Assembly (NCBI GenBank): GCA_022709405.1
Contig: JAKLIV010000002.1
Location: 5,700-69,699 of the forward strand
Length of the DNA: 64,000 bases
From: Spirochaetota bacterium
GTDB taxonomy: Bacteria > Spirochaetota > UBA4802 > UBA5550
Direction: 5' to 3'
A program made the position numbers and the translations under genes. The notes under the pieces were generated by a model that did no database searches, was not told where the DNA came from, and worked only from the letters and a program-made list of their open reading frames with translations. Positions within the stretch are counted from its first letter, which is position 1. Each line of letters opens with the position of its first letter. Below are positions 28,506 to 53,141 of the stretch, in pieces.

Positions 28506-28634
28506 ATAAGAGCCTCCATATAAACGACCCTCGCCTGTTATCCAGCGCAGAAGTATTTTAAAGCAACATATTCAGTATATACAAAAAAAATTAAGTCAGC
28601 AACAACTAAATTTTCAACGCCTGGAATAAAAATT

Positions 28635-29038
28635 GGAGGGGAACGTAAGCCGAATTCTGTTTTTTCCGCCATTTGTCTTGCCTGCATGTCGCCATACAGG
28701 TCCTTGCAACCTACCCGCGGCCTCGAACGGGCAGCTCTCAGACGGCCGCTTACTTGGTCTTGCACCGGATGGGGTTTGCACTGCCGTCGACCTTACGGCC
28801 GGCGCGGTGAGCTCTTACCTCGCCTTTTCACCCTTACCCATTGGGCGGTATGTTTTCTGTTGCACTTTCCGTCGCCTCGCGGCGCCCGGCCGTTAACCGG
28901 CATCCTGCCCTGCGGTGTTCGGACTTTCCTCACCGCCCCGCACCAGGGATTTTCCCGAAATGGCATTAAAGGCGATAACGGCCCTTTCCGGGACGCTCGC
29001 TGGTGCGGGGCAAGCGCGGCGGATTGTTCCCCTCCGCC
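28635..29038 (-). ncRNA. rnpB: RNase P RNA, bacterial type A
   Basis: The minus-strand sequence contains GGAAAGUCCGAACACCGCAGGGCAGGAUGCCGGUUAACGGCCGGGCGCC...AAAGUGCAACAGAAAACAUACCGCC...ACAGAAUUCGGCUUAC. P1 pairing GGAGGGGAAC/GUUCCCCUCC defines both ends. The ORF track's small ORFs 28633-29124 are artefacts. Confidence 0.9.
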
Positions 29039-41165: not shown

Positions 41166-43172
41166 TTATACCTTCTCAATTCTTACTGGGATTATTGCGT
41201 CTTCGCCTTGTTCTAATAATTCTTTATGCTCCATGAGGAATTCCGAAATCATGTCCCTGATGAAGTACGGAACATACGCCGACTCGGATTTCACATCCGG
41301 TGTCACTTTTACCGTGACCTTCATGGAGCCGTAAGGAGAAACCACTTTAACCGGCCATTTGTCGCGCACCTGGATGCTTTTCGCGTCCTCGGGGCTTATT
41401 TCGACATAGCCTTTCGGATACAGAAGCAGGGTCGCATTGTATTCCCTCATGGGGATGAAGGTCCTTCTCATGAGGTTGTTCTGGTGCCAGAAATGCTGGG
41501 CCTTTCCGGTCATCATGAGATAGGGGAACTCGGTGTTCTTCTCGGCCCCCTTGAAATTCGCCGAAACCGACACGAACTTGATCTTGCCCTTGGCGTCGCC
41601 CGCGTTGAATCTCGGGCAGCCCTGCGGGTACTTGTCGTTGCACGGCCACTGGATTCCGCCGATGCCCTTGAATTTGTCGTACTTGACGCCGGAATAGTTC
41701 GGGGTAAGTGACGCTATCTCGGCCATTACCGCGGCCGGAGAATCGTAATTCCACTTCGCCCCGGCTTTGGCTGCAACCATGGAATAAACCTGCCAGCCCG
41801 CCTGGATGCCCTTGACCGGCTCGACTTTCCTGTGCGAAAGCTGTATGCGCCTGTCGGTGCTGGTGAACGTGCCGTCGGATTCCACATAGGTTCCGATCGG
41901 TATCACGACGTCTGCAAGTTCGGTGAACGGGTTGTTGAACGCGCCGAAATAGACGACGAAATCGAGGTCATCGATCGCCTTTTGCTGGCGGACGATCAGC
42001 TCGTCATGGTCGACCACGACAAGGCCTTTGAGCTTCTTGGCCGCGAGCAGGTCGTACACGTCTTTACCGTTTTCGACCGGAAGGTCCGCGCCCCACGCCT
42101 TGCCGAATTTCTTGGCCGTTTCGGCATCCTTGATGCTCTGGAATCCGGTCAGCAGATCGGGAGCGACGCCCATATCGTAGGTTCCCTGGAGGTTCGCGAT
42201 CCCGGCGATCGGGTTGACGCCGCATCCTTCCTTGCCGATTTTACCGGCAACGACGAAAAGATTGTATATGTAGCTGATGGTGTCCTCGTCGAGGCCCGAT
42301 ATTCCCGACGAAAAGAAAGCCATCGCCGTTTTGGCTTCAGACAGATTCTTGACGACCGCGGCTATTTGCTGGGCGCTCACGCCGGTAAGGGACTCGATGT
42401 CCCCGTCGTTCAACGATCCGAGCGAGTTGGCGAATCCTTCGAAGCCCTCGGTGTATTTCTGGACGAAATCCGCATCGTGAAGGTTCTTTTCGATAAGCCC
42501 CTTGGCCATGGCCGCGAGCAGAATCTTCTTGGAGCCCGGCTTGCACTGCAGATGGATATCGCTGAGCTTCGCAATTTGCGACTTGCGGCTGCAGATCGTA
42601 ACAACGGTCGAGCCGTTCATCGCCGCCATGTGAATCTCACTTCCGATGATCGGGTTCTGCTTCGTTATGTCGGTGCCGACCACAAGGATGAACTCGGCCT
42701 TCTTGATCTCTTCGATCGATCCGAGCATCCCCGCCATGCCCGTGCCCTTGTACAGGACGTTGAGGCTTTCCCTCTGTCCGGATTCGGACTGAATACTGAC
42801 GTTGTTCGTTTTGAAAACCGACCTGGCGAGCTTCATGAAGAGATAGTTTTCTTCATTTGAGGAGCGGGGCGAAGCGAGGAAGCCGAGCTCTTCGGACGGC
42901 TTCTTGATCCCTTTCAATTTTTCAACCGCGAAGGAAACGGCCTCGTCGTAGCTCGCGCTTTCGAGCTTGCCGTTCTTTCTGATCAGGGGGGTGGTCAACC
43001 GATCATCGGTTCTGATCAGTTCATGGATGTGCCATCCCCTTACACAGAGCCTTCCCTTGCTGACAGGATGATTACGGGAAGGAAAAACGCCGCTAATTTT
43101 CCCGTCTTCAACATTCAGCAGATGGCCGCACCCTGTGCCGCAAAAATTACAAATCCCTGCCTTATAATTCAT
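41166..43172 (-). CDS. molybdopterin-oxidoreductase (MopB) subunit collinear with formate dehydrogenase H (FdhF), but apparently lacking the Sec/Cys-His active-site pair
   Basis: 668 aa. N-terminal CNFCGTGCG...GRLCVRGW 4Fe-4S motif. ...KTNNVSIQSESGQRESLNVL aligns with FdhF TNNVDCCARVUHGPSVAGL, with Gly and Gln at the U140 and H141 positions. No in-frame TGA. Confidence 0.7.
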   Translation of the reverse strand: MNYKAGICNFCGTGCGHLLNVEDGKISGVFPSRNHPVSKGRLCVRGWHIHELIRTDDRLTTPLIRKNGKLESASYDEAVSFAVEKLKGIKKPSEELGFLASPRSSNEENYLFMKLARSVFKTNNVSIQSESGQRESLNVLYKGTGMAGMLGSIEEIKKAEFILVVGTDITKQNPIIGSEIHMAAMNGSTVVTICSRKSQIAKLSDIHLQCKPGSKKILLAAMAKGLIEKNLHDADFVQKYTEGFEGFANSLGSLNDGDIESLTGVSAQQIAAVVKNLSEAKTAMAFFSSGISGLDEDTISYIYNLFVVAGKIGKEGCGVNPIAGIANLQGTYDMGVAPDLLTGFQSIKDAETAKKFGKAWGADLPVENGKDVYDLLAAKKLKGLVVVDHDELIVRQQKAIDDLDFVVYFGAFNNPFTELADVVIPIGTYVESDGTFTSTDRRIQLSHRKVEPVKGIQAGWQVYSMVAAKAGAKWNYDSPAAVMAEIASLTPNYSGVKYDKFKGIGGIQWPCNDKYPQGCPRFNAGDAKGKIKFVSVSANFKGAEKNTEFPYLMMTGKAQHFWHQNNLMRRTFIPMREYNATLLLYPKGYVEISPEDAKSIQVRDKWPVKVVSPYGSMKVTVKVTPDVKSESAYVPYFIRDMISEFLMEHKELLEQGEDAIIPVRIEKV

Positions 43173-44107
43173 ACTGTAAACTCCTCGACCTTTTTTTTAG
43201 GGGCCCGATTGAAAAGGCTGTTCCCTGAATGTCACTTAAGGTGTTTCTCCCCCCGCCGCTGAGCAGTGGCGGGAGGGGGAGGAACATCTTAAATTTTACA
43301 GCAGACTAACCGCTGTACATGTTTTTCGAGTTTGTTAATTATATAGCAGATTCCCGGCAGTTTTGTAAATAGGGGAATAACCTTAATTTACCTGAGTGGA
43401 ACAACCTATACATAGTATATTTTATGTATATTTTTATTATTGTTCCCATGGGTGAGGATTATTGGAAATGAGAAGGAAAGGCTTGCAGGGCTGGCCGCCC
43501 TGCACCCGCTCAGAGTAAAACCTGCCAGAATATGATTGCTCAGAGCAAAAATGACTTATAACCGGCTAATTATAGTTGTTACGTCTTCAGTGCACTGCGT
43601 CCGCTCAGCGCGGCCCTTTGAGCGTGATTTATTCCATGGAATTATTTTTAGAGGCTGCGGAGGTCCATCCTGTCTAATCCTCGCCCGTCGGCTACATCCA
43701 TGTAGCCTCCACTTAAGCTTACGATATTCTCTGAGCGAACCACGCCCGCGGCCACGCTTCAAGCGGACTCCGTGACGCAGGCAGCGCTTTCAACGCCGGT
43801 GCTTGCTCAGAGCAAGATTTCGGCCACGATCTTCTGTACTTACTCATAACGCGGCCATGGATGGCCGCGTTGGGCGAGGCCATCAGGATGATGATCCGAG
43901 CCTTACACTGTTGATTTACTGATACTGGCGTGACTGAAAATTGCGGATGCTTATAATTGATGTTTGTTTGATGATTATCTGTTACTGGAGTGAAGCCTCC
44001 CCGGCGTATAAGGGGCAGCCTCCGCCGGCGTTTGAGGCGGCGGCTTTTTGCTCCTCTTTTTCGCCGGTTGAAAAAGAGGCAAACCCTCCCCTGTCAGGGG
44101 GACAATC

Positions 44108-44142
44108 CCGGCCCGGTACTCCGGGCCAAACCCCCGCGCCGG
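44108..44142. repeat. hairpin repeat copy 1 (CCGGCCCGGTACTCCGGGCCAAACCCCCGCGCCGG)
   Basis: 7-bp stem GGCCCGG/CCGGGCC with a 4-nt loop. Related copies at 45114-45151 and 45189-45214. Confidence 0.6.
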
Positions 44143-44443
44143 TTATCGGCGCATACCTGCCTTCGAGTACCGAAATTTTCTGAAAGGGTGTGCCAAAAGA
44201 ACATTATAACTGTATGATACGATACATAGGAAATTCCTCTGGCAAAAATCCGCTTCAAGTGACTTAATGCATTTTTCTTGTGCTGAGCATGTCGAAGCAT
44301 CGGAACAATTTTTACCTAACCCGAATGTGTATCTATTGACAAAAAAAGCCCCGGATGCAAGGTCTTTTTTCAAATTTTTGCATCAAATCCTCCCTTTTTC
44401 TGACTACTATATGATTCCCATTCAGGCATACAGGAGGCGGCAC

Positions 44444-44992
44444 ATGGCAATAGCACACTTGAACCCGGTAATAGACTCGATCAGCGGCAGCGTGGGGAAG
44501 CTCGTGTTCTACGAGCGGTACGGCAAAACGGTCATGCGCGCATACATCATACCGCCCAATCCCCGCACCGCGGCCCAGCAGGCCAACCGCTCCAGGTTCA
44601 GGCAGGCCATGGCCTCATGGCGGCAATTGCCGGATTACGAGAAAGATTCCTACAACCGTAGGGCCAGGAAGCTTTCCATGACCGGCCACAACCTGTATAT
44701 CTCGCGGTACATGAAGGGAACATCCGTTGCGGAACGCGTGCAGACTGGGATTGCTCCGGCGTACAGGGGGGATAATGACGGCGGATTGTTTCCTGATTCT
44801 TACTCCCCCTCTCCTTTCAGGAGAGGGGGCCGGGGGGTGAGGTCAGCAACAACAAACCCTGCTCAGAGCAAGGTTTCAGATACGCTTCACGGCCTTTACC
44901 GCTCCGTCTCCTCTTCGTCATCACCGGCATACGATCTTTTCCTGCCCCGGTCAGCAGCTGTCACGCACGCCATGCCTCCCGGATCCGATTGA
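44444..44992 (+). CDS. hypothetical protein (doubtful; strong hairpins and palindrome motifs lie inside the ORF)
   Basis: Perfect RBS aggagg 7 nt before the ATG at 44444. N-terminal 110 aa look protein-like. The C-terminal half is Ser/Gly-rich low complexity and coincides with a 10-bp-stem hairpin (44805-44829) and a TGCTCAGAGCAAG palindrome (44860-44873). Confidence 0.3.
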   Translation: MAIAHLNPVIDSISGSVGKLVFYERYGKTVMRAYIIPPNPRTAAQQANRSRFRQAMASWRQLPDYEKDSYNRRARKLSMTGHNLYISRYMKGTSVAERVQTGIAPAYRGDNDGGLFPDSYSPSPFRRGGRGVRSATTNPAQSKVSDTLHGLYRSVSSSSSPAYDLFLPRSAAVTHAMPPGSD

Positions 44993-45113
44993 CCTTTCCC
45001 GTTTTTTCGATTCCCGATGCCCTGTCCGCAAAATTCTGGCTTTGATCTTTTTCAAATACCGTTGAGGCGGTGTCATCTCCACTTTCTCTGGACAAGCAGA
45101 GAAAGTGTCACTT

Positions 45114-45214
45114 CCCGGCCCGGTACGCCGGGCTAAAACCTCTGCCGGAGGTTCCGGCAACAACCTCACCGGTGAAAAAGTAGCACAACCCCGGGCCAAA
45201 ACCCGTGCCGGAGG
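45114..45214. repeat. hairpin repeat copies 2 and 3 (about 26-bp units, 65-bp period) preceded by an 8-bp-stem hairpin at 45073-45096
   Basis: ccgggcTaaaaccTCtgccggaggt at 45128-45152 and ccgggcCaaaaccCGtgccggaggt at 45193-45217. Copy 2 has the full GGCCCGG-TACG-CCGGGC stem-loop. Confidence 0.6.
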
Positions 45215-45347
45215 TATCGTCAAAAAGTGATACTCATATTCAGGGCATACGGTAAATTTTTCTGTTTGACTTCACGCCACCTCCATGAAGGATGAATTAT
45301 GAAGGGGCCGTTATATTTTCGCTTTTCAACATAATTAAAAAAAAGAC

Positions 45348-46427
45348 ATGGACCGTTTCAAACGCATAGCACCGGAAAGCGTTCCGCGGACCACCCGGTT
45401 CGGGGAAGTACCGAAATACGCCGAGGGATTGTACGATCTCGGCAACGACATCTATGCCTGGATGGTGCCCAACGGTTCATGGGGCGAAAGCAATTCCGGC
45501 CTGGTCGTCGGCAAAGGTTCATCCCTGCTCATAGACACGCTGTGGGACCTTAAATATACCCGCGCCATGCTCGAAGCCATGCATCCCCTGGCGCGCCTGA
45601 ACCCGATCCGCACCCTCGTCAACACGCACGCCGACGGCGATCACTGGTGGGGCAACGAGCTTGTCCCCGGGGCCGAAACCATATCTTCCCGCGCCGCTTT
45701 CAACGAGATGCGCCATATCAAACCGGTTTCGATGATACTCATGGGCAGTGTGCTGGGTAAAACCCTGGAATATATCGGAGCGAGCCGGGTCGGGCACTGG
45801 TTCAGCGCGATGTGCGCGCCGTACGATTTCGGCGAGGTCACCCCTTCCCTGCCCGGACGCACTTTCGACAGAGAGCTCACGATCGATGCGGGCGGACGGG
45901 AAATCCGCCTGTACATGGTCGGTCCCGCCCATACCGAGGGCGACGTTATCGTCCACGTGCCCGACGCCGGCGTGCTTTTCTGCGCGGACATCGTGTTCAT
46001 TGACTCTACGCCGGTAATGTGGGCGGGCCCGGTGAACAACATGATCGCCGCCCTGAACAGGATACTTGACATGGACGCCGACATCATCGTTCCCGGCCAC
46101 GGACCGATTACTGACAGGTCGGGCGTGCGCCTGGTGCTCGAATACTGGCAGTACGTCGAGTCCCGGGCGAACATGCGGTATGACGACGGCATGTCCGCGG
46201 CAGAGGCGGCGGCGGATATTCTCCTTTCGATAGATTTCGCCGCGCAGCCGTTCTCGCGCTGGAACTCGCCCGAACGCATGATGACCAACGTAAACACGAT
46301 ATATCGCCACCGCAGCGGCAGGACCGGTCAGCCCGGGGTTCCCGGGCTCCTGAACGTGCTCGCGAAGCAGGCCCGGATCGCGCATCTTCTGCCCGACGCC
46401 CAACCGGCCGTCATGCGCAAGCGGTGA
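45348..46427 (+). CDS. MBL-fold metallo-hydrolase
   Basis: 359 aa. NTHADGDHWWGN and HGP metal-ligand pattern. Confidence 0.7.
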   Translation: MDRFKRIAPESVPRTTRFGEVPKYAEGLYDLGNDIYAWMVPNGSWGESNSGLVVGKGSSLLIDTLWDLKYTRAMLEAMHPLARLNPIRTLVNTHADGDHWWGNELVPGAETISSRAAFNEMRHIKPVSMILMGSVLGKTLEYIGASRVGHWFSAMCAPYDFGEVTPSLPGRTFDRELTIDAGGREIRLYMVGPAHTEGDVIVHVPDAGVLFCADIVFIDSTPVMWAGPVNNMIAALNRILDMDADIIVPGHGPITDRSGVRLVLEYWQYVESRANMRYDDGMSAAEAAADILLSIDFAAQPFSRWNSPERMMTNVNTIYRHRSGRTGQPGVPGLLNVLAKQARIAHLLPDAQPAVMRKR

Positions 46428-46445
46428 TCCACCCGGGGAGGACAC

Positions 46446-47450
46446 ATGAAACTCGTCACCTTTACAGTCAAAAACGGCCAGCCGCAGATCGGAGCGCTCA
46501 TCGAGGGATGCCGCACCATCGCGGTTTTACAAACCGGCGCTGCGGCCATGGACGGAAAAAAGTCGCCGTTTTTCAGCGACATGATTTCCTTTCTCAGGGG
46601 CGGCCTGGAGGCCAGGGACAAGGCGCTGAAGGTCATTGCGTTCATAGAGGCGAAATCCCCCCCGAAGAAGAAAATACCTCTTGCCAGGGCCAGGCTCCTC
46701 GCTCCGGTGCCCAGGCCCGAATCCATACGCGACTGTATGTCGTTCGAACAGCACATCATCAACAGCATAAGGGCGGTCGGATTGAAGAAGCTCGCGCCGA
46801 TCGACGAGTTCATCGAGAAGGCGCTGGGACGCAAACGCACCATCGCCTATTTCGCCAACCGGGAATGGTACCGGCGCCCGATATACTACAAGGGCAACCG
46901 CTTTTCGGTCGTCGGCCCCGAAGCCGAGGTCCGGATGCCGTCGTACACCTCCATGCTCGACTACGAGCTCGAATGGGGCGTGTTCATCAACAGGCAGGGT
47001 TCCGACATTCCCCGTGAACGGGCGCATGAATACATCGGCGGATATACCGTGTTCAACGATTTCTCGGCGCGCGACATCCAGCTCGCCGAACAGGGCGGCC
47101 GCCTCGGGCCAGCCAAGGGCAAGGATTTCGACACCGGCAACGCGATGGGGCCCATTCTCGTCACGCCGGACGAGATGTCCGACCCGTACAACCGCCTCAT
47201 GATCGCGCGCGTCAATGGCAAGGAATGGTCCCGGGGAAATTCCCGCGACATGCGCTGGACCTTCGAGGACACCATATCGTATGTCTCGCGGTCCGAGACC
47301 CTCTACCCGGGAGAATTCATCGGTTCAGGCACGTGCTCGGGCCCGCAGGGAAAGGGCTGCGGCCTTGAGATGGGGAAGTTTTTGAAAAGGGGCGACGTGG
47401 TCGAGCTCGAGGTACAGGGGATTGGCGTGCTCAGGAACCGGATCGTATAA
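46446..47450 (+). CDS. fumarylacetoacetate hydrolase (FAH) family protein
   Basis: 334 aa. C-terminal FAH-fold motifs (GTCSGP..G). Follows the MBL gene after 18 bp. Confidence 0.7.
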   Translation: MKLVTFTVKNGQPQIGALIEGCRTIAVLQTGAAAMDGKKSPFFSDMISFLRGGLEARDKALKVIAFIEAKSPPKKKIPLARARLLAPVPRPESIRDCMSFEQHIINSIRAVGLKKLAPIDEFIEKALGRKRTIAYFANREWYRRPIYYKGNRFSVVGPEAEVRMPSYTSMLDYELEWGVFINRQGSDIPRERAHEYIGGYTVFNDFSARDIQLAEQGGRLGPAKGKDFDTGNAMGPILVTPDEMSDPYNRLMIARVNGKEWSRGNSRDMRWTFEDTISYVSRSETLYPGEFIGSGTCSGPQGKGCGLEMGKFLKRGDVVELEVQGIGVLRNRIV

Positions 47451-47455
47451 TCTGT

Positions 47456-47971
47456 TTACGGATAGGTCTTCATGATCTCTTCGAATTCTGCGAGCAGGTC
47501 CCTGTTCATGAACCCGAGGTTTCGTATCGTCTCAGACGTGAATGTGGCGATGACCGCCTTCGAGCGGGCGCACTCCTTTCCCTTTTCGTTGTAGAGGAAA
47601 CCCTCGATGACCGCCTCGCGGTCGCTCGTTATTTCGGCAACCCGGCCCACGGCCCGGAGCGGTTTTTCGATCATTACCGGCCTCAGAAAATCTACTGAAA
47701 TCGATTTCGTCAGCAGCAGGACCTTGAGCCTGTAGATCGCGGTCCAGCTCATGACCTCGTCCATGATCGTGGTGATCACCCCGCCGTGGACCAGTTTGTC
47801 CCAGCCGCAGCAGTGAGCAGGCACGGCCACGATCGAACATACACGGTCCCCATCGGGAAAAAATTCCATGCGCAGGCCCTTGTCGTTGGTCGGGCTGCAC
47901 CCGAAGCAGTTGTGGTTCCTGATGTTCCGTATCTTCTCGACCGCCGCTGCGGCCATGACGCGCTCTTCCAT
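47456..47971 (-). CDS. hotdog-fold thioesterase (PaaI/4HBT-like)
   Basis: HGGVITTIMDEVMSW hotdog motif. Start taken at MEERVMAAAA (47971) because the ORF track's longer start would overlap the upstream regulator. Confidence 0.55.
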   Translation of the reverse strand: MEERVMAAAAVEKIRNIRNHNCFGCSPTNDKGLRMEFFPDGDRVCSIVAVPAHCCGWDKLVHGGVITTIMDEVMSWTAIYRLKVLLLTKSISVDFLRPVMIEKPLRAVGRVAEITSDREAVIEGFLYNEKGKECARSKAVIATFTSETIRNLGFMNRDLLAEFEEIMKTYP

Positions 47972-47988
47972 TGCGAATCCCCCCTGAA

Positions 47989-50184
47989 TCATGCTCCCGA
48001 CTGTCCGCTCTTGCTCTTGTCGATCACCCACTGAACGGCATACTGCACCATCTCGGATGCGCTTTCCAGGTTCAGCTTGTTTTTAATGCGCTCGCGGTAA
48101 TTCTCCACGGTCTTCACGCTTATATTGAGCTTCTCCGCGATGTGCCTGTTGCCCAGGCCGTTCCCGATGTACTGGAACACCTCGAACTCCCTCATGGTGA
48201 GGCATTCCAGGGACGACATCGTCTCCCTTCGGCCCTCGTACGGCATGCGGCTGATAAGCTCGGCCGTGACCCTGGCGCTCAGGAACTGTTTGCCCGCCAG
48301 CACGGTGCGAATCGCGGTGACCACGGTCTGAGGGGCCTCCTGCTTCATCACGTATCCCCTGGCCCCGGCCCTGAGCGCCCTCTCCGCATAGATCATCTCG
48401 TCGTAGATCGAAAGCACGAGCACGGGCAGCCCTGCGTAGCGCGCCCTGAGCGCCTTGATCAGGTCAAGACCGCTCGCGCCGTCTATTGATATGTCCACGA
48501 TGATAAGGTGCGGATTCAGCCTCGCCACCTGGCGCACCGCCTCGTCGGCGTTCGTCGCCTCGCCGCACACGAGAAGGTCCTCTTCCCGGTTGATGATCTG
48601 CGCGAGCCCCTGGCGCACGATCGGATGGTCATCGACCACGAGAATCCCGGCCTTGCGGTCAGAGGTGTTCACCATGTATTTCTTCATGTCGCTTTCCGAG
48701 ATATCGGGCCGCCTGGAGCCTTCATGCTTGCGCAGATTGCAGGTGATGACAGTTCCGCCGCCGGCGTTGCGCTCGATAGAGAAGGCCGCGCCGATGATCC
48801 ATGAACGGTACCGCATGATCCGTATCCCGACCCCGCTGCTTTCCTCGAAAGAGTCCGGAAGGCCCTCCCCGTCGTCGGTGATCTTCATCGTGATCATATT
48901 TTCGCCCGATGTCATTGTTATGATCACGTTCCCGGCCTTGCCGTGCACGACGGCGTTCTCCACCGCCTCCCTGGCGATGTAGTAGAAATTCGAGGCCTCG
49001 AGATCGTCGATCCGTCCGAGATCTTCATCCAGATTGAGCAGGCACTTGACCCTGCCCTTTTTCTCGAACTCGAGGCGAAGCTCTTCGAACGCGGCATATA
49101 GACCGCCCGACGCCATGTCCACCGGGCAAAGGTCGCGCGCGAGGCCCCTGGTCTGGGTCATGGCGTCATGAATAAGATTGATTATCTCCTCCATGCCGGC
49201 GGCCTCTTCCGGATTTTTCTCCTTGAGCTTGAGCCGGAGTATTTCGCTCTTGAACACGAGCCCCGCCAGGTTCTGTCCCAGCCTTTCATGAAGGTCCTGC
49301 CCGATTTTGTGGCGCTCCATCTCTGAACTGCTCAGTATCATCCTTTCGAGGCGTTTGCGCTCGGTCATGTCGATTCCGACGAAAAACACGAAATCAAGCG
49401 ACTCGTCCTTGCGGAAAAACGGCCGCGCGTGCCATTCGACCAGGCGCTCCTCCCCCGACCTGGTCAGCACCTTGTTCTCGATGACCATCTCCTTTCTGCT
49501 TCTTTTAAGGGCCTCGAAGCTGTGAACGGCCGCATCACGTTCGGCGGGCGGTATGATCTTCGATACGTAATCCCCGCCGGAGACCTCCCCGATCTGGTAG
49601 CCCAGGGCCTCGAGAAACGAACGGTTCATCGTGATTACCGATCCCTTTTCGTCCAGCGCTATGTAGTAGGCCGGCGATGCGTCCTCCAGGCTCCTGATGA
49701 AATCCCGCTCCTTGATGAGCTTCTGCTCGGACTGCACCAGCGCGATCGTCCTCTCTCTCACCGCTACTTCGAGCAGGTCCTTTTCCCTGCGCAGCAGGTC
49801 CTCGGCGTTCTTTATCCTGAGCATTACCTTGATTTGCGCGACAAGTTCGGCCTCGTCCACCGGCTTGGTCAGAAACGCGTCAGCCCCGGTCTCGAGTCCC
49901 CTGATCCTGCTGCTGACGTCTGTCTTTATTGCTGTCAGCAGGATAATGGGTATGTGCGAAGTCGCGGGCTCGGCCTTGAGAATCGTGCACACTTCGAAGC
50001 CGTCCATGCCGGGCATTTTAATGTCGAGTATGATCACGTCTGGAAGGTTCGCCGACGCCTTCTCGATCCCCTCGGGCCCCGACTGGGCGGTCAGCACCGA
50101 GCATCCCGGCATGAAGCTCTTGAGCAGGGCCGATATGGTTATCAGGTTGTCCTGGTTGTCGTCGATCGCGAGAATCGTGCTCAT
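47989..50184 (-). CDS. fused REC-PAS-histidine kinase (HisKA_3/NarX-LiaS type)-HATPase-REC-LuxR HTH protein (kinase and NarL-type regulator in one polypeptide)
   Basis: 731 aa. N-terminal receiver (ILAIDDNQDNL...ILDIKMPGMDG). PAS. H-box ERHKIGQDLHERLGQNLAGL. ATPase G-boxes. Second receiver (ILVVDDHPIVRQGL...). C-terminal LTMREFEVFQYIGNGLGNRHIAEKLNISVKTVENYR LuxR-type HTH. Confidence 0.8.
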   Translation of the reverse strand: MSTILAIDDNQDNLITISALLKSFMPGCSVLTAQSGPEGIEKASANLPDVIILDIKMPGMDGFEVCTILKAEPATSHIPIILLTAIKTDVSSRIRGLETGADAFLTKPVDEAELVAQIKVMLRIKNAEDLLRREKDLLEVAVRERTIALVQSEQKLIKERDFIRSLEDASPAYYIALDEKGSVITMNRSFLEALGYQIGEVSGGDYVSKIIPPAERDAAVHSFEALKRSRKEMVIENKVLTRSGEERLVEWHARPFFRKDESLDFVFFVGIDMTERKRLERMILSSSEMERHKIGQDLHERLGQNLAGLVFKSEILRLKLKEKNPEEAAGMEEIINLIHDAMTQTRGLARDLCPVDMASGGLYAAFEELRLEFEKKGRVKCLLNLDEDLGRIDDLEASNFYYIAREAVENAVVHGKAGNVIITMTSGENMITMKITDDGEGLPDSFEESSGVGIRIMRYRSWIIGAAFSIERNAGGGTVITCNLRKHEGSRRPDISESDMKKYMVNTSDRKAGILVVDDHPIVRQGLAQIINREEDLLVCGEATNADEAVRQVARLNPHLIIVDISIDGASGLDLIKALRARYAGLPVLVLSIYDEMIYAERALRAGARGYVMKQEAPQTVVTAIRTVLAGKQFLSARVTAELISRMPYEGRRETMSSLECLTMREFEVFQYIGNGLGNRHIAEKLNISVKTVENYRERIKNKLNLESASEMVQYAVQWVIDKSKSGQSGA

Positions 50185-53141
50185 TTTTCCCTCAGCCAGA
50201 AGCGGATTTTTTCGGTCAGGTCCTGCACGGTGAACGGCTTGGGTATATAGTCGTCGCAGCCCGCTTCAATGGTCTTCTCGCGATCGCCCGACATGGTGAG
50301 CGCGGTCAGGGCGATGCAGGGGATGCTCCTGGTCTCCCGGTTTTCCTTGAGCTCCCGCGCGACGATGAATCCGTTCTTTTCGGGAAGCGCCATATCGAGG
50401 AGTATGAGGTCAGGACGCTCCGAAAAAACCATGGCCACGGCCTCGTTCCCGTCGTGCGCCTCGCACACACGGTACCGTTCTCGCAGGACCGCCCTCACCG
50501 CAAGTATGTTGTCGCTGTCGTCGTCGACGACCAGAACCTTCGGCAGGACGCTGCGCGTCCTGATCCTCGACGAGCTCCATGTCCTGCCGGCCGCCGCCGA
50601 ATCCCCCGCCATGAGCACCGAAAGGGGAACCGATACGTCCCTCTTGATGTCGAGGTTGTTCAGCTCTCTCTCGTCGAGCTCCTCGGGATCGCGCCATTCG
50701 ACCGGAAAAAGTATCTCGAACCTCGTGCCGGTGCCGACCTTGCTCGACACGCTGATGGTCCCTGAAATCAACTGCGCCGACTTCGAAGCTATCGCAAGGC
50801 CGAGGCCCGTGCCCTCGTACCTGCGCGTCAGCGTTCCGTCGATCTGCCTGAACTCCTCGAAAATATGCGGAAGCTCCCTCGGATCGATGCCGATACCGGT
50901 ATCGTCCACCGATACAGCCGCGCCCGATTCCTCCGAGGAAACGGTTATCGTCACGCCGCCCCGTTCGGTGAACTTCACCGCGTTTCCGATGATGTTCTGC
51001 AGAATCTGGTACACCCTCGACTCGTCGCTCTCGATATGGGGGATGTCTCCCTCGATGACGAGCTTGAGGCCGATACCCTTGTCCTCGGCAATCTGCTCCA
51101 GGTTGTCGACGATCACGCGGACGATGCCGACGAGCGAAAGCGGCTTGATCTTGAGGTCGATCCTTCCGGCCTCGATCTTCGAAAGGTCCAGTATGTCGTT
51201 TATCAGGGACAGCAATTTGCCGCCGTTCCGGTCGATTATTTCGAGATATTCCATTTCTTCATCCGTCAGGCGGTCCTTCCCCTGCAGGATGAGCACGTGT
51301 GACAGGGCCACAATCGAATTCAGCGGCGTCCGAAGCTCATGGCTCATATTGGAAAGGAATTCGGTCTTGAGCTTGTTGGCCTCCTCGACCTTGAGCCTCT
51401 GGTTCTCCAGCTCCATGTTCTGCTTCTGGACCCTCTCGCTCTGGTGCTTGAGCTCCCGGGCCTGGGTTATCAGCTCCTCCTTCTGGTTCTCGAGAAGCTG
51501 GTTTTTTTCAGAAAGCTCCTTTGCGAGCCTTCTTGACTCCTCGTCTGAGAGTATGTTCGAGAAGGCCGTGTTCATTACCGGCCGGACCTGGTTCAGTATC
51601 GTCGCGACCTCGAACGGGTACTCAGTGAGTGTCGCCAGGGAAATGATGGCCACGGTCCTGTTGTTGACGATGACCGGGATGGTCATGATCTCCTTGGGCA
51701 CGATGTCGCCGATGATTGTGCGCATGCGCACCATGGATTTCTCGGAAATGTTCCTTGTCACGGCTATCTCACGGGTCGCCAGCACCCTCCCGAATTCGCC
51801 CTCAAGCCTTCCGGCATGGAATGTCTCGAGCGAGCCGATATCGAGACCGATCGAAGTGACATGGTTGAATTCGCGGCCGTCGGGAGACAGCATGTAAAAG
51901 GCGCCGACGCTCGATTCGGTCACCTCGACGAATTTTCTGAGCACGTTCCTGCTGAATTCATCCAGGCTCAGGGTCGAGACCATGACCTGTATGATGTCGG
52001 AGCTGATTTTCTGGACATTGAGCTGCGAGACTATGATTTCGGTCATCCTGTTGAACGATGCGGCCATCGCGCCGATTTCATCGTTCCCGAAGGGCAGAGA
52101 TCTGGCGGTGTAGTCGCCGTCCGAAATCCGTTCCGCCACGCGGGCGACGGATTTCATCGGTGCGGAAATCCATACTGCAACACCCCTTGCCGCGAAAAAT
52201 ACTGCGGCGGCGAAGGCGATCGAAAGGCCCGCCATCAGCGAGAGCAGCGTGTAAACCGGACCGTATGCCTCGTCTGCGTCCTTTTTAACCACGATGCCCC
52301 ATCCGAGACGGGGGATGTGCCGGTATGCGGCCAGTACCATTTTCCCGCGGTAGTCCCTGCACATGGCCACCCCCGACCCGCCCCGTACGGAGGCAAGGGA
52401 TGCCTCATCGCGAAGTTTTTTCGATATCAGGTAGCCGTTCTGCCCCCGGAGCGGGCTCATCGCCGAGAGATCCCTGTTTACCAGCTGGATTTCGCCCGAC
52501 TTGTCCAGATCATCGTGCTCGAGAAGGAGCCCGTAGATCGAGCGTTCGAGATTGATACGGGCCACGAGCAGGCCGAATGGTTTTTTCGCGCCCAGCCCGG
52601 ATGGCCCGAGAGGCAGTGCGATAGTCATTGTGGGGATGTTCAGCCTGCTGGAAAAATATATGCCGCGGATCGCGATATCGCCGCCGGCTCCCGAATCGAC
52701 GACATATTCCCGGTGCAGAAAATCTATGCCCAGGCCCTTGCTGTCGGTCGAATATACGGTTCTTCCGGTCCGGGCGCTGACAATGAATATCTCGCGGTAA
52801 ACAGAGTTGTTTTCAAGGTAGGAGTTCAGGACCCACGACAGCGCGCCCGGGGCGGTTCCGGCAGGCCGTGCGCCGACGCACAGTTCCCGCGCCGGGGCAT
52901 AGAGGTCGTTCAATCTCGACATGGTCTTCAGGTCACCCTCGACGCGGTCTACGATGGCGATGATTTCCCGGGTCCTGTCGTCCCTGATCGACTCGATGAT
53001 CCCTGTCTCCCTTTCATGAACATGCATCCAGAAAAAGACAATCGAGGGGATGCAGAACACGAGACACGCCAATCCGAAAAAGATAAAAGACCTGACAAGG
53101 AGCCTCGATTCGATCGATCTGTATGTTGAGCCTGTTTTCAT
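50181..53141 (-). CDS. hybrid sensor histidine kinase: TM-Cache-like sensor-HAMP-GAF-HisKA-HATPase-REC-REC
   Basis: 986 aa. SHELRTPLNSI H-box. C-terminal dual receivers (VLVVDDDSDNILAV...). ATGA overlap with the downstream gene. Confidence 0.8.
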   Translation of the reverse strand: MKTGSTYRSIESRLLVRSFIFFGLACLVFCIPSIVFFWMHVHERETGIIESIRDDRTREIIAIVDRVEGDLKTMSRLNDLYAPARELCVGARPAGTAPGALSWVLNSYLENNSVYREIFIVSARTGRTVYSTDSKGLGIDFLHREYVVDSGAGGDIAIRGIYFSSRLNIPTMTIALPLGPSGLGAKKPFGLLVARINLERSIYGLLLEHDDLDKSGEIQLVNRDLSAMSPLRGQNGYLISKKLRDEASLASVRGGSGVAMCRDYRGKMVLAAYRHIPRLGWGIVVKKDADEAYGPVYTLLSLMAGLSIAFAAAVFFAARGVAVWISAPMKSVARVAERISDGDYTARSLPFGNDEIGAMAASFNRMTEIIVSQLNVQKISSDIIQVMVSTLSLDEFSRNVLRKFVEVTESSVGAFYMLSPDGREFNHVTSIGLDIGSLETFHAGRLEGEFGRVLATREIAVTRNISEKSMVRMRTIIGDIVPKEIMTIPVIVNNRTVAIISLATLTEYPFEVATILNQVRPVMNTAFSNILSDEESRRLAKELSEKNQLLENQKEELITQARELKHQSERVQKQNMELENQRLKVEEANKLKTEFLSNMSHELRTPLNSIVALSHVLILQGKDRLTDEEMEYLEIIDRNGGKLLSLINDILDLSKIEAGRIDLKIKPLSLVGIVRVIVDNLEQIAEDKGIGLKLVIEGDIPHIESDESRVYQILQNIIGNAVKFTERGGVTITVSSEESGAAVSVDDTGIGIDPRELPHIFEEFRQIDGTLTRRYEGTGLGLAIASKSAQLISGTISVSSKVGTGTRFEILFPVEWRDPEELDERELNNLDIKRDVSVPLSVLMAGDSAAAGRTWSSSRIRTRSVLPKVLVVDDDSDNILAVRAVLRERYRVCEAHDGNEAVAMVFSERPDLILLDMALPEKNGFIVARELKENRETRSIPCIALTALTMSGDREKTIEAGCDDYIPKPFTVQDLTEKIRFWLREK

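What the first reader, a model, noticed from the sequence alone, without database searches (positions are those of the whole stretch)
43173..45347. Roughly 2 kb of hairpin-dense, largely noncoding DNA upstream of the hydrogenase operon with a repeated TGCTCAGAGCA palindrome and dispersed hairpin repeats
**What the sequence shows.** No convincing gene occupies 43173-44443. Three features stand out.

- A GC-rich imperfect hairpin lies in the operon leader at 43247-43282.
- Many perfect stem-loops are present: 43484-43502, 43688-43705, 43849-43868 (9-bp arms), 44046-44072, 44805-44829 (10-bp arms) and 45073-45096.
- The palindrome TGCTCAGAGCA(AG) occurs at 43537-43547, 43802-43816 and 44860-44873. 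Degenerate copies sit at 43507 and 43728, and TGCTGAGCA at 44281.

The lone RBS-equipped ORF (44444-44992) contains both a palindrome and the strongest hairpin, which makes it suspect.

**Possible readings.** The region could be:

- a regulator-binding array for the adjacent operon;
- one or more structured ncRNAs or a riboswitch-like leader (a Moco-type leader would fit a Mo-enzyme operon);
- a decayed mobile or phage remnant.
Basis: seen in the sequence. Interest (0 to 1): 0.6.

Follow-up and report, generated by a model that had tools for sequence, protein, structure and literature searches.

The report
Hairpin-repeat mosaic around dispersed small gene
The hairpin-rich stretch is real, but it is not a control region for the hydrogenase operon: it is a patchwork of low-copy structured repeats around a genuine, multi-copy small gene of unknown function, and it sits inside a 4-kb insertion that the closest relative lacks.

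Summary
The region has 9 perfect hairpins (4.1/kb against 0.8/kb elsewhere). TGCTCAGAGCA occurs exactly three times here and nowhere else in the 64 kb.

- **Operon control.** Only 43173-~43445 belongs to the formate-dehydrogenase/hydrogenase operon: a sigma70-like promoter and a 5' leader whose long hairpin is almost identical in the sister species L017. No Moco or other Rfam family matches.
- **Insertion.** About 43450-47455 is absent from L017.
- **The ORF.** ORF 44444-44992 is a real gene. Its N-domain is under purifying selection (pN/pS 0.23-0.52). A C-terminal motif is in frame in 19 of 20 paralogues. The family holds 5,696 clusters, is distantly DUF6266-like, and has several copies per genome at unrelated loci.
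- **The non-coding DNA.** It is a mosaic of modules (A, B, C, D, G+X) shared piecemeal with the upstream regions of only a few paralogues (L075, L076, L081).
- **The palindrome.** It is the family's linker repeat (GCT-CTG-AGC, "ALS"). Region A is an inverted linker fragment.
- **The strongest ORF hairpin.** Elsewhere this repeat flanks a DUF559 endonuclease cassette.

Some modules keep their structure through compensatory changes, so small RNAs remain possible but unproven.

The parts
43173..43331 (-). 5' leader of the formate-dehydrogenase-like/hydrogenase operon. It carries a long imperfect GC hairpin (about 43237-43291, core 43247-43282) and a Shine-Dalgarno site.
   Evidence: It is almost 100% identical to L017 over ~135 nt, whereas the coding sequence is 83% aa identical. 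The single stem change is G-C to G-U. RNAfold gives a stable hairpin. No Rfam family matches.
43338..43377 (-). Sigma70-like promoter of the operon: TTTACA (43369-43364), an 18-nt spacer, TATATA(AT) (43345-43338), preceded by CCCCTA.
   Evidence: Read from the sequence. The CCCCTATTTACA block is conserved in L017 and recurs upstream of the same operon in other Spirochaetota. Inference only; no transcript data.
43450..47455 (.). Insertion of about 4 kb relative to the sister species. It holds the non-coding mosaic, the small gene, and the metallo-beta-lactamase-fold and FAA-hydrolase genes.
   Evidence: In L017 the thioesterase stop codon is followed within ~50 nt by the operon promoter. Homology to the window breaks at ~43445 and resumes at 47456. 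No direct repeat of 9 nt or more sits at the two ends. The right part has higher G+C.
43473..43580 (-). Module A: a GC hairpin (43484-43504) and two palindrome units (43508-43520, 43536-43548). It is an inverted fragment of a paralogue's variable linker.
   Evidence: The minus strand 43555-43502 translates to VIFALSNHILAGFTLSGC, preceded by a stop codon. This is the phi-A-L-S-N repeat of paralogues P0004 and P0005. By blastn it is 79-95% identical to the linker regions of L072 and L064 in reverse orientation.
43581..43833 (+). Module B: a 253-nt structured element. It has a long-range helix (43590-43626 pairing with 43741-43781), an internal hairpin (43690-43707) and palindromes at 43726 and 43803.
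   Evidence: It is 86% identical to L076 3351-3604 with sharp boundaries, which is more conserved than the adjacent coding N-domain (74%). The substitutions show no codon periodicity. All 7 changes in predicted pairs keep the pairing, but only two sequences exist. The palindromes are degenerate in L076.
43842..44049 (+). Module C. It contains two hairpins with A(U)GGAU loops (43848-43871, 43885-43897), a conserved single-stranded-looking core, a promoter-like site (43930-43957), and a GC stem plus T-run that looks like a terminator (44018-44049).
   Evidence: It is 73% identical to L075 2249-2490, and a partial copy lies at L075 1376-1448 on the other side of a PIN/antitoxin cassette. Hairpin C2 changes CATCA/TGATG to GAGCA/TGCTC. 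There is a weak TwoAYGGAY hit.
44046..44165 (+). Module D1: a rearranged partial copy of module D. Its hairpins are 44053-44079, 44087-44102, 44110-44127 and 44136-44152.
   Evidence: The covariance model built from D scores it 34.8 bits (E about 1e-6). Hairpin 44053-44079 covaries with L075 (CCTC/GAGG against GCTAC/GTAGC). RNAfold z-score is -3.2.
44228..44372 (+). Module G+X: a dispersed repeat of ~145 nt. It starts at GGAAATTCC and ends in an A-tract, a short GC stem and a T-tract (44341-44368). A promoter-like site (44190-44218) precedes it.
   Evidence: Nine copies occur in seven loci, always in the orientation of the small gene and often on either side of toxin-antitoxin cassettes or unknown ORFs. 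The stem is weak, with a consensus energy of -3.2 kcal/mol.
44375..44443 (+). Conserved upstream region and ribosome-binding site of the small gene: CAAATCCTCCC-TTTTTCTGACTAC-TATATGAT... then AGGAGG at 44432-44437.
   Evidence: It is conserved in all paralogues examined.
44444..44992 (+). Real gene for a 182-aa protein. The N-domain is 44444-44716 (a beta-hairpin plus three helices, DUF6266-like). The rest is a disordered variable linker that ends in the LHxxYRSV(T/S)xxS motif.
   Evidence: It has 17 homologues, with the N-domain 70-84% identical. pN/pS is 0.23-0.52 in the N-domain and 3.7 in the linker. The C-terminal motif is in frame in 19 of 20 paralogues. AlphaFold2 gives pLDDT 89.9 for residues 1-98. 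The family holds 5,696 clusters. Distant relatives hit PF19781.
44797..44845 (+). Solo hairpin repeat inside the ORF linker: CCCCCTCTCC-TTTCA-GGAGAGGGGG followed by CCGGGGGGTGAGG.
   Evidence: It is 100% conserved at the DNA level while the flanking linker diverges. In L080 inverted copies of it flank a DUF559 endonuclease gene.
44846..44878 (+). A 33-nt in-frame indel that carries the palindrome AAACCCTGCTCAGAGCAAGGTTT. It is an inverted copy of the linker repeat unit.
   Evidence: It is absent from the otherwise collinear L010 and L060 genes. Paralogue L009 has seven such units, all read as phi-A/T-L-S-x.
45052..45235 (+). Module D2: a closing stem and three hairpins (45080-45107 with a GACAAG loop, 45116-45133, 45143-45159), followed by a degenerate 63-nt repeat of the last two hairpins.
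   Evidence: It is 79% identical to L076 3701-3833. Of 31 pairs, 2 are compensatory, 4 are wobble changes and none is broken, but 120 of 500 shuffles do as well. z-scores are -3.6 here and -5.9 in L076. A diverged D-like module lies in L081.

Best explanation
The 2-kb stretch is two different things joined together.

**(1) The operon's own control region, 43173 to about 43445.** This is the control region of the Mo-oxidoreductase/hydrogenase operon on the minus strand. It consists of a sigma70-like promoter and a ~155-nt leader with a conserved long hairpin.

**(2) The left half of a ~4-kb lineage-specific insertion, from about 43450 onward.** This part is built around a genuine, dispersed, multi-copy small gene (DUF6266-like N-domain, then a disordered repeat linker, then a conserved C-terminal motif).

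I read the non-coding DNA on both sides of that gene as a recombination-shuffled mosaic of low-copy, hairpin-forming modules that travel with paralogues of the gene:
- an inverted pseudogene fragment of a paralogue's linker (A), which supplies the TGCTCAGAGCA palindromes (GCT-CTG-AGC = Ala-Leu-Ser);
- structured modules B, C and D;
- a terminator-like dispersed repeat (G+X);
- inside the ORF, a solo terminal repeat of a DUF559-endonuclease cassette.

**Proposed mechanism.**
- Shown: paralogous loci exchange sequence by recombination or gene conversion (a chimeric allele exists).
- Shown: small selfish cassettes (toxin-antitoxin pairs, DUF559) lie next to or inside these loci, flanked by copies of the repeats.
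- Inferred: these cassettes insert and leave, so that repeats are duplicated or left behind.
- Inferred: the hairpins act locally, mostly as terminators or insulators between the divergent operon and the small gene and as mRNA or sRNA structure. They are not a dedicated regulatory array.
For: **Insertion.** L017 (83% aa identity in the FDH-like protein) keeps the promoter and leader but goes straight to the thioesterase gene.

**Real gene.**
- Homologues and alignment.
- pN/pS 0.23-0.52 in the N-domain.
- C-terminal motif in frame in 19 of 20 paralogues.
- Confident fold.
- 5,696 clusters.

**Dispersed gene with no fixed partner.** Neighbours differ at every locus and no recombinase is enriched among 106 neighbouring ORFs.

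**Mosaic.**
- B is found only in L076, C only in L075 (twice), and D only in L076 plus a diverged copy in L081.
- G+X has nine copies in seven loci.
- All lie in the gene's orientation and keep the order B, then C/H, then D, then the promoter.

**Low copy number.** None of the motifs recurs elsewhere in the 64 kb.

**Palindrome is the linker repeat.**
- L009 has seven units read as phi-ALS-x.
- Region A translates to VIFALSNHILAGFTLSGC on the minus strand.
- A 33-nt in-frame indel carries the ORF copy.

**Recombination.** L060 is a chimera of the window allele and the L010 allele.

**Cassettes flanked by the repeats.**
- A DUF559 gene lies between inverted copies of the ORF hairpin in L080.
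- Toxin-antitoxin pairs lie between X copies in L004 and between C copies in L075.

**The window is an outlier.** Most family members have upstream gaps of 50-700 nt with 0-2 hairpins.
Against: - B is better conserved between the window and L076 (86%) than the adjacent coding domain (74%). Its substitutions avoid or preserve predicted pairs. That looks like selection on an RNA or DNA structure, not junk.
- D and C show compensatory changes.
- I found no terminal inverted repeats, no target-site duplications and no empty sites for any module. No direct repeats bound the island. Mobility is therefore inferred from distribution only.
- Only loci that carry the small gene were sampled, so the link between the modules and that gene could be an ascertainment artefact.
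- No expression data exist.
Confidence: 0.5

Rival explanations
1. The modules are genes or cis-elements for novel structured RNAs read from the plus strand. Candidates are D (closing stem plus three hairpins, ~120 nt), B (~250 nt with a long-range helix), a ~85-nt RNA from the promoter-like site at 43930-43957 to the stem and T-run at 44018-44049, and G+X (~145 nt). They would act as sRNAs or as leaders or trailers of the small gene's mRNA.
For: - D has two compensatory and four wobble changes and no broken pair in 31 pairs.
- The G-U pattern fits the plus strand only.
- RNAfold z-scores are -3.6 to -5.9.
- Hairpins C2 and C5 covary.
- B is 86% conserved, shows no codon periodicity, and has its changes concentrated in unpaired columns.
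- Promoter-like sites sit ~10 nt upstream of where the G homology and the C transcript would start.
- All modules share the orientation of the small gene.
Against: - Only 2-3 copies of each module exist, and the shuffle control is not significant (120/500).
- There is no Rfam match.
- Protein searches of spurious ORFs across B and D found nothing in 5.8 billion proteins.
- The covariance model found no further copies in 465 kb of family loci.
- Most paralogues lack these modules altogether.
- The X stem is weak.
Confidence: 0.25
2. The palindromes and cruciform-prone hairpins are binding sites for the small protein itself. The protein would be a DNA-architectural, HMG-box-like factor that recognises distorted DNA around its own gene, for autoregulation or to promote recombination among paralogues.
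For: - The protein is small and basic, with a beta-hairpin and three helices.
- 20-25 of 114 family members give weak hits to three HMG-box Pfam families.
- hhalign against an HMG-box alignment gives 59% probability and E = 9e-5 over the W..L...EK..Y...A segment.
- The repeats cluster only at loci that carry the gene.
Against: - All HMG hits are below Pfam thresholds.
- Foldseek of a confident model against the PDB finds no HMG box (best E = 0.19).
- The profile search of PDB sequences gives TFAM only at E = 8.8.
- Most paralogues have no hairpin-rich flanks.
- The palindrome is not conserved in L076's copy of B.
Confidence: 0.1
3. The region is an operator or enhancer array through which a transcription factor that binds TTGCTCAGAGCAA controls the adjacent Mo-enzyme/hydrogenase operon.
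For: Two perfect 13-bp palindromes lie 365-640 bp upstream of the operon start. The motif is significantly over-represented in the window.
Against: - The sister species has the same operon, promoter and leader without any of this DNA.
- No copy occurs in the 42 FDH loci from other genomes.
- The same motif is a coding repeat in paralogous small genes.
- It is degenerate in the B homologue.
Confidence: 0.03
4. The region is an integron-like cassette array (a cluster of attC-type sites without an integrase), in which the hairpins are folded single-strand recombination sites and the toxin-antitoxin modules are cassettes.
For: - Toxin-antitoxin cassettes and unknown ORFs are bracketed by copies of X or C in L004, L075, L059 and L069, all in one orientation.
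- Chromosomal integrons are known from spirochaetes (background knowledge, not tested here).
Against: - No integrase or any recombinase occurs within 2.5 kb of more than 40 loci.
- X and C lack the paired R''/L''-L'/R' architecture and the RYYYAAC/GTTRRRY cores when read by eye.
- The window's own mosaic contains no cassettes.
- No attC model was available to run.
Confidence: 0.04

Closest known systems
REP/BIME and REPIN elements (repetitive extragenic palindromes of proteobacteria)
   Same: Short hairpin-forming units are combined in mosaics in intergenic DNA. Some have a G-rich tail next to the stem, some occur in inverted pairs (43679-43707 and 43848-43879), and a local role in termination or mRNA stability is plausible.
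   Different: - Copy number is very low: none elsewhere in 64 kb.
- The modules are long (120-250 nt).
- They are tied to paralogues of one small gene.
- No RAYT transposase was seen.
Rickettsia palindromic elements (RPEs) and similar MITE-like elements that sit in frame inside genes
   Same: Palindromic or hairpin units are tolerated inside an open reading frame. Here these are the 33-nt in-frame indel with the palindrome and the 49-nt hairpin repeat. The same units also occur in non-coding DNA.
   Different: - In most paralogues the palindrome unit is always in one frame and one orientation (phi-ALS-x). It therefore behaves as a peptide repeat, not as a randomly inserted element.
- No TIR or TSD was found.
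- The taxon is different.
DUF559 (Vsr-like PD-(D/E)XK endonuclease) cassettes
   Same: The hairpin CCCCCTCTCC..GGAGAGGGGG + CCGGGGGGTGAGG at 44797-44845 is the repeat that flanks a DUF559 gene in inverted orientation in L080.
   Different: The window has only a solo copy, inside the small gene, and no DUF559 gene. Mobility of such cassettes is my inference; I found no paper describing it.
Pfam DUF6266 (PF19781), function unknown
   Same: It shares the N-terminal signature G.vG..v.y.r.G....R....P.NP.T..Q...R..F. Distant relatives of the window protein pass the Pfam threshold (76 bits), and 16 of 114 family members give hits at E <= 1 (best 8.2e-06).
   Different: The window protein itself gives no Pfam hit. 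It has a helical W..L...EK..Y...A segment and a disordered repeat tail, not the ~200-aa DUF6266 body. No literature exists.
TwoAYGGAY RNA (Rfam RF01731)
   Same: Two adjacent hairpins at 43848-43902 have AUGGAU and AGGAU loops. A third AUGGAU-loop hairpin lies on the opposite strand at 43690-43707.
   Different: - The score is 23.7 bits against a gathering score of 43, and only model positions 49-107 are matched.
- The homologue in L075 has AGGAC and AGGAU loops.
- The taxon and context are different.
Integron attC arrays / CALINs
   Same: Toxin-antitoxin cassettes are bracketed by same-orientation repeats next to a fixed anchor gene.
   Different: There is no integrase, no attC core sites by eye, and no cassettes in the window's copy.

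Membership tests
Moco/Tuco riboswitch (Rfam) or any other Rfam family | Covariance-model score at or above the family's gathering score in the leader or the mosaic | tested here: not met
   At E <= 10 the region gives 11 weak hits, none of them Moco and none near threshold. At gathering thresholds the whole window yields only RNase P RNA at 28631-28989. Homologous loci give nothing.
TwoAYGGAY RNA (RF01731) | Score of at least 43 bits over the full model | tested here: not met
   23.7 bits, E = 1.9, model positions 49-107 of 168.
TwoAYGGAY RNA (RF01731) | Both terminal loops AYGGAY and conserved in homologues | tested here: not met
   The window has AUGGAU and AGGAU. The L075 homologue has AGGAC and AGGAU, and its partial copy differs again.
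REP/BIME-type extragenic palindromes | High-copy dispersal through the genome | tested here: not met
   No further copy of any motif occurs in the other 62 kb of the window. B, C and D occur in only 2-3 of ~80 family loci. The whole genome could not be scanned.
REP/BIME-type extragenic palindromes | A cognate RAYT (Y1 transposase) in the genome | not tested
   Only 64 kb of the genome and the fetched loci were available. None was seen among 106 neighbouring ORFs.
MITE / non-autonomous transposon | Terminal inverted repeats and target-site duplications; filled and empty sites | tested here: inconclusive
   B begins with ACGTCTTC and ends with ACGATCTTC in both loci, so this is part of the element and not a TSD. 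No TIRs were found, and no direct repeat of 9 nt or more sits at the island ends. The only filled/empty comparison available is for the whole 4-kb island.
Integron cassette array / CALIN | attC sites with R''-L''/L'-R' structure and a tyrosine-recombinase IntI nearby | tested here: not met
   No recombinase appears among the neighbours. The repeats lack the core sites by eye. No attC model was available, so the site test is visual only.
Diversity-generating retroelement (template/variable repeat) | A reverse transcriptase nearby, and template-versus-variable repeat mismatches confined to adenines | tested here: not met
   There is no RT in the locus. The 25-nt repeat at 43804 and 44860 differs at 4 positions (84% identity), with changes of more than one base type.
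Pfam DUF6266 (PF19781) | hmmscan score at or above the gathering score (23.4 bits) | tested here: not met
   The window protein gives no hit at E <= 0.1. Distant relatives from the same search score 76 and 28 bits, and 16 of 114 family members give hits at E <= 1. The relationship is remote homology, not membership.
HMG-box DNA-binding domain | Sequence-profile match above threshold | tested here: inconclusive
   20-25 of 114 members hit three HMG Pfam families at E = 0.002-1, all below the cut-offs. hhalign gives 59% probability and E = 9e-5 over 44 columns.
HMG-box DNA-binding domain | L-shaped three-helix fold | tested here: not met
Intrinsic (rho-independent) terminators | GC-rich stem followed by a T-run | tested here: inconclusive
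   The consensus scan finds 3 sites (all on the minus strand) against 3.4 expected. 44018-44049 (a 9-bp GC stem with one mismatch, then TTTTT) and X (44341-44368) fit by eye, but the X consensus stem is weak at -3.2 kcal/mol.

The most novel reading that the evidence does not exclude
The small DUF6266-like gene and its structured flanks (B, D, G+X, the linker hairpin, and the 11-nt direct repeat ACCGCTCCGTC x2 at its 3' end) form a previously unrecognised kind of dispersed genetic unit.

In this reading a ~100-aa nucleic-acid-binding protein works with its own adjacent structured RNA or cruciform DNA. It would either spread the unit or recombine paralogous copies, or it would create hotspots where toxin-antitoxin and DUF559 cassettes lodge.

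This would explain three things: why a family of 5,696 clusters sits at unrelated loci in several copies per genome, why alleles are chimeric, and why the best-conserved sequence at the locus is non-coding.
Probability: 0.1. Interest if true: 0.7.

Novelty: new variant of a known kind. Interest (0 to 1): 0.35.

Why it matters
**For the hydrogenase operon.** The result is deflationary. Only ~270 bp (a promoter and a conserved hairpin leader) belong to the operon, and there is no Moco-type riboswitch.

**What remains.**
- A large, entirely uncharacterised family of small proteins (thousands of clusters in Spirochaetota and Bacteroidota metagenomes, remotely DUF6266-like) behaves like a dispersed, recombining, multi-copy gene.
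- Its disordered linker is built from palindromic repeat units and hosts the terminal repeat of DUF559 cassettes.
- A few copies are accompanied by long non-coding modules that are better conserved than the gene itself.

If those modules are RNAs or protein-binding structures, this would be a new protein and structured-nucleic-acid pairing. If not, it is a clear example of how hairpin-rich "dark" intergenic DNA arises from pseudogene fragments and cassette footprints.

Tried and rejected
- **Rfam.** Searched the region (E <= 10), the whole window, eight FDH loci and three paralogous loci. Nothing usable came up.
- **tRNA/tmRNA and tandem repeats.** None found.
- **Pseudogene remnants of neighbours' ORFs.** tblastn of all ORFs from six paralogous loci against the region found only the small gene and weak linker-repeat similarity.
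- **More copies of B and D through spurious ORFs.** Searches in the 5.8-billion-protein collection found none.
- **Viral contigs.** No B core and no relatives of the small protein. PHROGs, NCBIfam and PADLOC gave no hit.
- **PDB sequence profile.** Nothing significant.
- **Covariance model of D.** A search over 465 kb found only the known copies and one weak diverged hit.
- **Conserved neighbours or recombinases.** A Pfam scan of 106 flanking ORFs found none.
- **tRNA adjacency.** Only 3 of 37 loci.
- **Direct repeats at the island ends.** None of 9 nt or more.
- **DGR reading.** Rejected: no RT, and the mismatches are not adenine-specific.
- **Literature.** No paper mentions DUF6266 or PF19781. 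Nothing on DUF559 flanking repeats.


Full report

Yes. A scan for perfect stem-loops (stem >=7 bp, loop 2-10 nt) finds 9 in 43173-45347, or 4.1/kb. The rest of the window has 0.79/kb, and this is the highest count of 310 sliding windows of the same size.

TGCTCAGAGCA is exact at 43537, 43804 and 44860 and nowhere else in the 64 kb. With one mismatch allowed on both strands there are 7 matches against 0.73 expected, and none of 100 shuffles reaches that. The dispersed two-hairpin repeat is also real: CCCGGCCCGGTACNCCGGGC occurs twice and CCGGGCYAAAMCC three times.

No gene was called between the Mo-oxidoreductase gene and the small ORF in four independent assemblies of this locus. Simple promoter and terminator consensus sites are not enriched.

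**2. Where the window comes from, and what belongs to the operon.**

The locus is on contig DAOTDL010000025 of a Spirochaetota MAG, GCA_035453685.1. Gene 41166-43172 (minus strand) is a molybdopterin oxidoreductase that heads an FeS/flavoprotein/HycI/antiporter-like operon.

The closest species in the genome collection is L017, with 83% aa identity. It aligns upstream of the start codon almost base for base for ~135 nt, including the long hairpin (window 43237-43291). Its one stem difference turns G-C into G-U. The alignment continues more loosely through a TTTACA-N18-TATATA(AT) promoter to about window 43445.

In L017 the next gene upstream is the thioesterase, followed by the two sensor-kinase genes. 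In the window these lie at 47456-53141. So about 43450-47455 is an insertion relative to L017, or a deletion in L017. It holds the non-coding mosaic, the small ORF, more non-coding DNA, and the metallo-beta-lactamase-fold and FAA-hydrolase genes. No direct repeat of 9 nt or more marks its ends.

The leader is therefore a conserved 5'-UTR hairpin of unknown role. It is not a Moco riboswitch: no Rfam family matches here or in eight related FDH loci.

**3. The ORF is a real gene.**

- **Homologues.** ORF 44444-44992 has an AGGAGG site 6 nt upstream. It has 17 homologues in the 90%-clustered collection, all from Spirochaetota MAGs or anaerobic-digester metagenomes, and three paralogues come from one MAG.
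- **Domain layout.** The first ~91 residues are 70-84% identical. The middle is variable in length and sequence. A C-terminal motif LHxxYRSVTAPS recurs.
- **Selection.** The N-domain is under purifying selection, with pN/pS 0.23-0.52 in five comparisons. The linker shows 10 non-synonymous changes to 1 synonymous.
- **Frame conservation.** The C-terminal motif is in the frame of the N-domain in 19 of 20 distinct paralogues, at distances of 25-118 codons. The whole ORF is therefore translated.
- **Predicted structure.** AlphaFold2 with 114 sequences gives a confident beta-hairpin plus three helices (pLDDT 89.9) and a disordered tail.
- **Family size.** An exhaustive profile search finds 5,696 50%-identity clusters at E <= 1e-3, typically ~145 aa. 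Named members are Spirochaetota or Bacteroidales hypothetical proteins.
- **Database matches.** The window protein hits nothing in Pfam, PHROGs, NCBIfam, PADLOC or PDB sequences. Distant relatives found in the same scan pass the threshold of Pfam DUF6266.
- **HMG-box lead.** 20-25 of 114 members give sub-threshold hits to three HMG-box families. hhalign against a hand-typed HMG alignment gives 59% probability. Foldseek finds no HMG box. This stays a lead, not a classification.
- **Genomic neighbours.** Neighbours differ at every locus, and no recombinase or other family is enriched among 106 flanking ORFs.

**4. What the palindrome is.**

In paralogue L009 the linker contains seven units of the type TTTGCTCTGAGCAAC. 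Unit lengths are all multiples of three, and every unit is read as phi-(A/T)-L-S-x. GCT-CTG-AGC (Ala-Leu-Ser) is palindromic, apart from its central base, simply through these codons.

The window's ORF carries one such unit in inverted orientation, inside a 33-nt in-frame indel (44846-44878). The otherwise collinear L010 and L060 genes lack it.

The two upstream copies in region A lie 30 nt apart. On the minus strand they translate to VIFALSNHILAGFTLSGC, just after a stop codon. That is the linker repeat of P0004 and P0005. By blastn, region A matches the linkers of L072 and L064 in reverse orientation. Region A is therefore an inverted fragment of a paralogue's linker.

The copy in module B reads NLALSK on the minus strand. 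It is degenerate in B's only homologue (CTCGCTCAGTGCAAG), so the palindrome as such is not under constraint there.

None of the 42 FDH loci from other genomes contains the motif. This removes the operator-array reading.

**5. The non-coding modules.**

A metagenome scan returned 79 loci with relatives of the small gene. blastn of the window's non-coding DNA against them shows a patchwork.

- **B (43581-43833).** It is 86% identical to L076 3351-3604, which lies between an FKBP gene and that locus's small gene. The boundaries are sharp.
- **C (43842-44086).** It is 73% identical to L075 2249-2490. A partial second copy sits on the far side of a PIN/antitoxin cassette.
- **D (45052-45175).** It is 79% identical to L076 3701-3833. 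A rearranged partial copy lies at 44046-44165, and a diverged D-like module is duplicated in L081.
- **G+X (44228-44372).** It has nine copies in seven loci, often on either side of toxin-antitoxin pairs or unknown ORFs.

All modules share the gene's orientation and keep the order B, then C/H, then D, then the promoter. None recurs elsewhere in the window. A covariance model of D finds no other copy in 465 kb of family loci. Most paralogues have ordinary upstream gaps of 50-700 nt with 0-2 hairpins, so the window's locus is the extreme case.

**6. Evidence for structure.**

- **D.** It folds as a closing stem with three hairpins. z-scores are -3.6 in the window and -5.9 in L076. Between the two full copies, 31 predicted pairs show 2 compensatory and 4 wobble changes and no disruption, and the wobbles fit the plus strand. 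With two sequences the shuffle control is not significant (120/500).
- **C.** Hairpin C2 changes CATCA/TGATG to GAGCA/TGCTC. Hairpin 44053-44079 changes CCTC/GAGG to GCTAC/GTAGC, with a conserved loop.
- **B.** It has a ~37-nt long-range helix. Its 36 differences from L076 show no codon periodicity (14/11/10). Only 7 fall in paired columns, and all 7 keep the pair.
- **Candidate transcripts.** Promoter-like sites precede a possible ~85-nt transcript ending at a GC stem and T-run (44018-44049), and they precede the start of the G+X homology.
- **X.** The X stem is weak.

These points keep a small-RNA reading alive, but they do not establish it.

**7. Cassette footprints and recombination.**

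The strongest hairpin in the ORF (44797-44845, CCCCCTCTCC..GGAGAGGGGG + CCGGGGGGTGAGG) is 100% conserved at the DNA level while the surrounding linker diverges. In L080, inverted copies of it flank a DUF559 (Vsr-like endonuclease) gene immediately downstream of that locus's small gene.

Toxin-antitoxin pairs are bracketed by X copies in L004 and by C copies in L075.

L060's gene is a chimera: its first ~150 nt are identical to the window and the rest is identical to L010.

Together these results show that these loci recombine with one another and collect small selfish cassettes.

**8. Conclusion.**

The best-supported account has two parts. The first ~270 bp are the operon's own promoter and conserved hairpin leader. 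The rest is the left part of a lineage-specific insertion built around a real, dispersed small gene. Its flanks are a recombination-shuffled mosaic made of a linker pseudogene fragment, low-copy structured modules, a terminator-like dispersed repeat and a solo cassette repeat.

I put 0.5 on this account. The main rival is that some modules (D and B above all) are functional plus-strand RNAs, at 0.25. A reading in which the small protein binds these structures gets 0.1. The operator-array and integron readings get 0.03-0.04 each.

What is shown:
- the insertion;
- the gene's reality;
- the identity of the palindrome;
- the module homologies;
- the DUF559 link;
- the chimeric allele.

What is inferred:
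- mobility of the modules and cassettes;
- terminator or insulator roles;
- any RNA or protein-binding function.

Noticed in passing
L080 4507-4550 (-) and 4925-4973 (+), gene 4585-4968: A DUF559 (Vsr-like endonuclease, Pfam E = 1.9e-28) gene is flanked by inverted copies of the hairpin repeat CCCCCTCTCC..GGAGAGGGGG + CCGGGGGGTGAGG. It looks like a small selfish cassette with hairpin termini. I found no paper describing this.
   Followed up: partly
L019, L020, L021, L023, L025, L026: the 150 nt upstream of the FDH-like gene: A clade of Spirochaetota or Leptospirales MAGs shares a different, very stable and well-conserved leader structure (-55 to -74 kcal/mol) in front of the same Mo-oxidoreductase operon. 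No Rfam family matches. It is a candidate new cis-regulatory RNA.
   Followed up: partly
window 43364-43377 (-) and the equivalent sites in L017, L018, L028, L035, L037, L046: The motif (A)TCCCCTATTTACA recurs upstream of the FDH/hydrogenase operon across distant Spirochaetota. In some it is preceded by a GGGGAATTCCCC palindrome. It is probably the -35 region plus an upstream element or a regulator site.
   Followed up: no
L060 3017-3526: This allele of the small gene is chimeric. Its first ~150 nt are identical to the window allele and the remainder is identical to L010. That is direct evidence of recombination or gene conversion among copies or strains.
   Followed up: partly
window 44900-44925; L076 4430-4455: The conserved C-terminal peptide motif RSVTAPS is encoded by an 11-nt direct repeat (ACCGCTCCGTC twice). 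This period is not a multiple of three, so the DNA itself may also be under constraint.
   Followed up: no
L137 253-5031; L122 3983-5860: Distant DUF6266-like relatives occur as tandem paralogues. One is a 786-aa protein with long internal repeats, which hints at a structural or surface role for the wider family.
   Followed up: no
L081 2640-3300: The upstream region of this paralogue contains a ~420-nt tandem duplication of a module (H) that is also present in L076 3604-3700, followed by a diverged D-like module.
   Followed up: partly
window 28631-28989 (-): Bacterial RNase P RNA class A (257 bits). It is the only Rfam family in the window at gathering threshold.
   Followed up: no
window 45348-47450: The metallo-beta-lactamase-fold and FAA-hydrolase genes in the right half of the insertion have clearly higher G+C (0.60-0.65) than the flanking operon (0.53-0.59). 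This is consistent with separate, possibly horizontal, acquisition.
   Followed up: no
L009 5819-5903 (-), L063 1568-1652 (-), L102 4640-4713 (+): A tRNA gene (Leu-CAA, Arg-CCG) lies just downstream of the small gene in 3 of 37 loci. This is not a general feature.
   Followed up: yes
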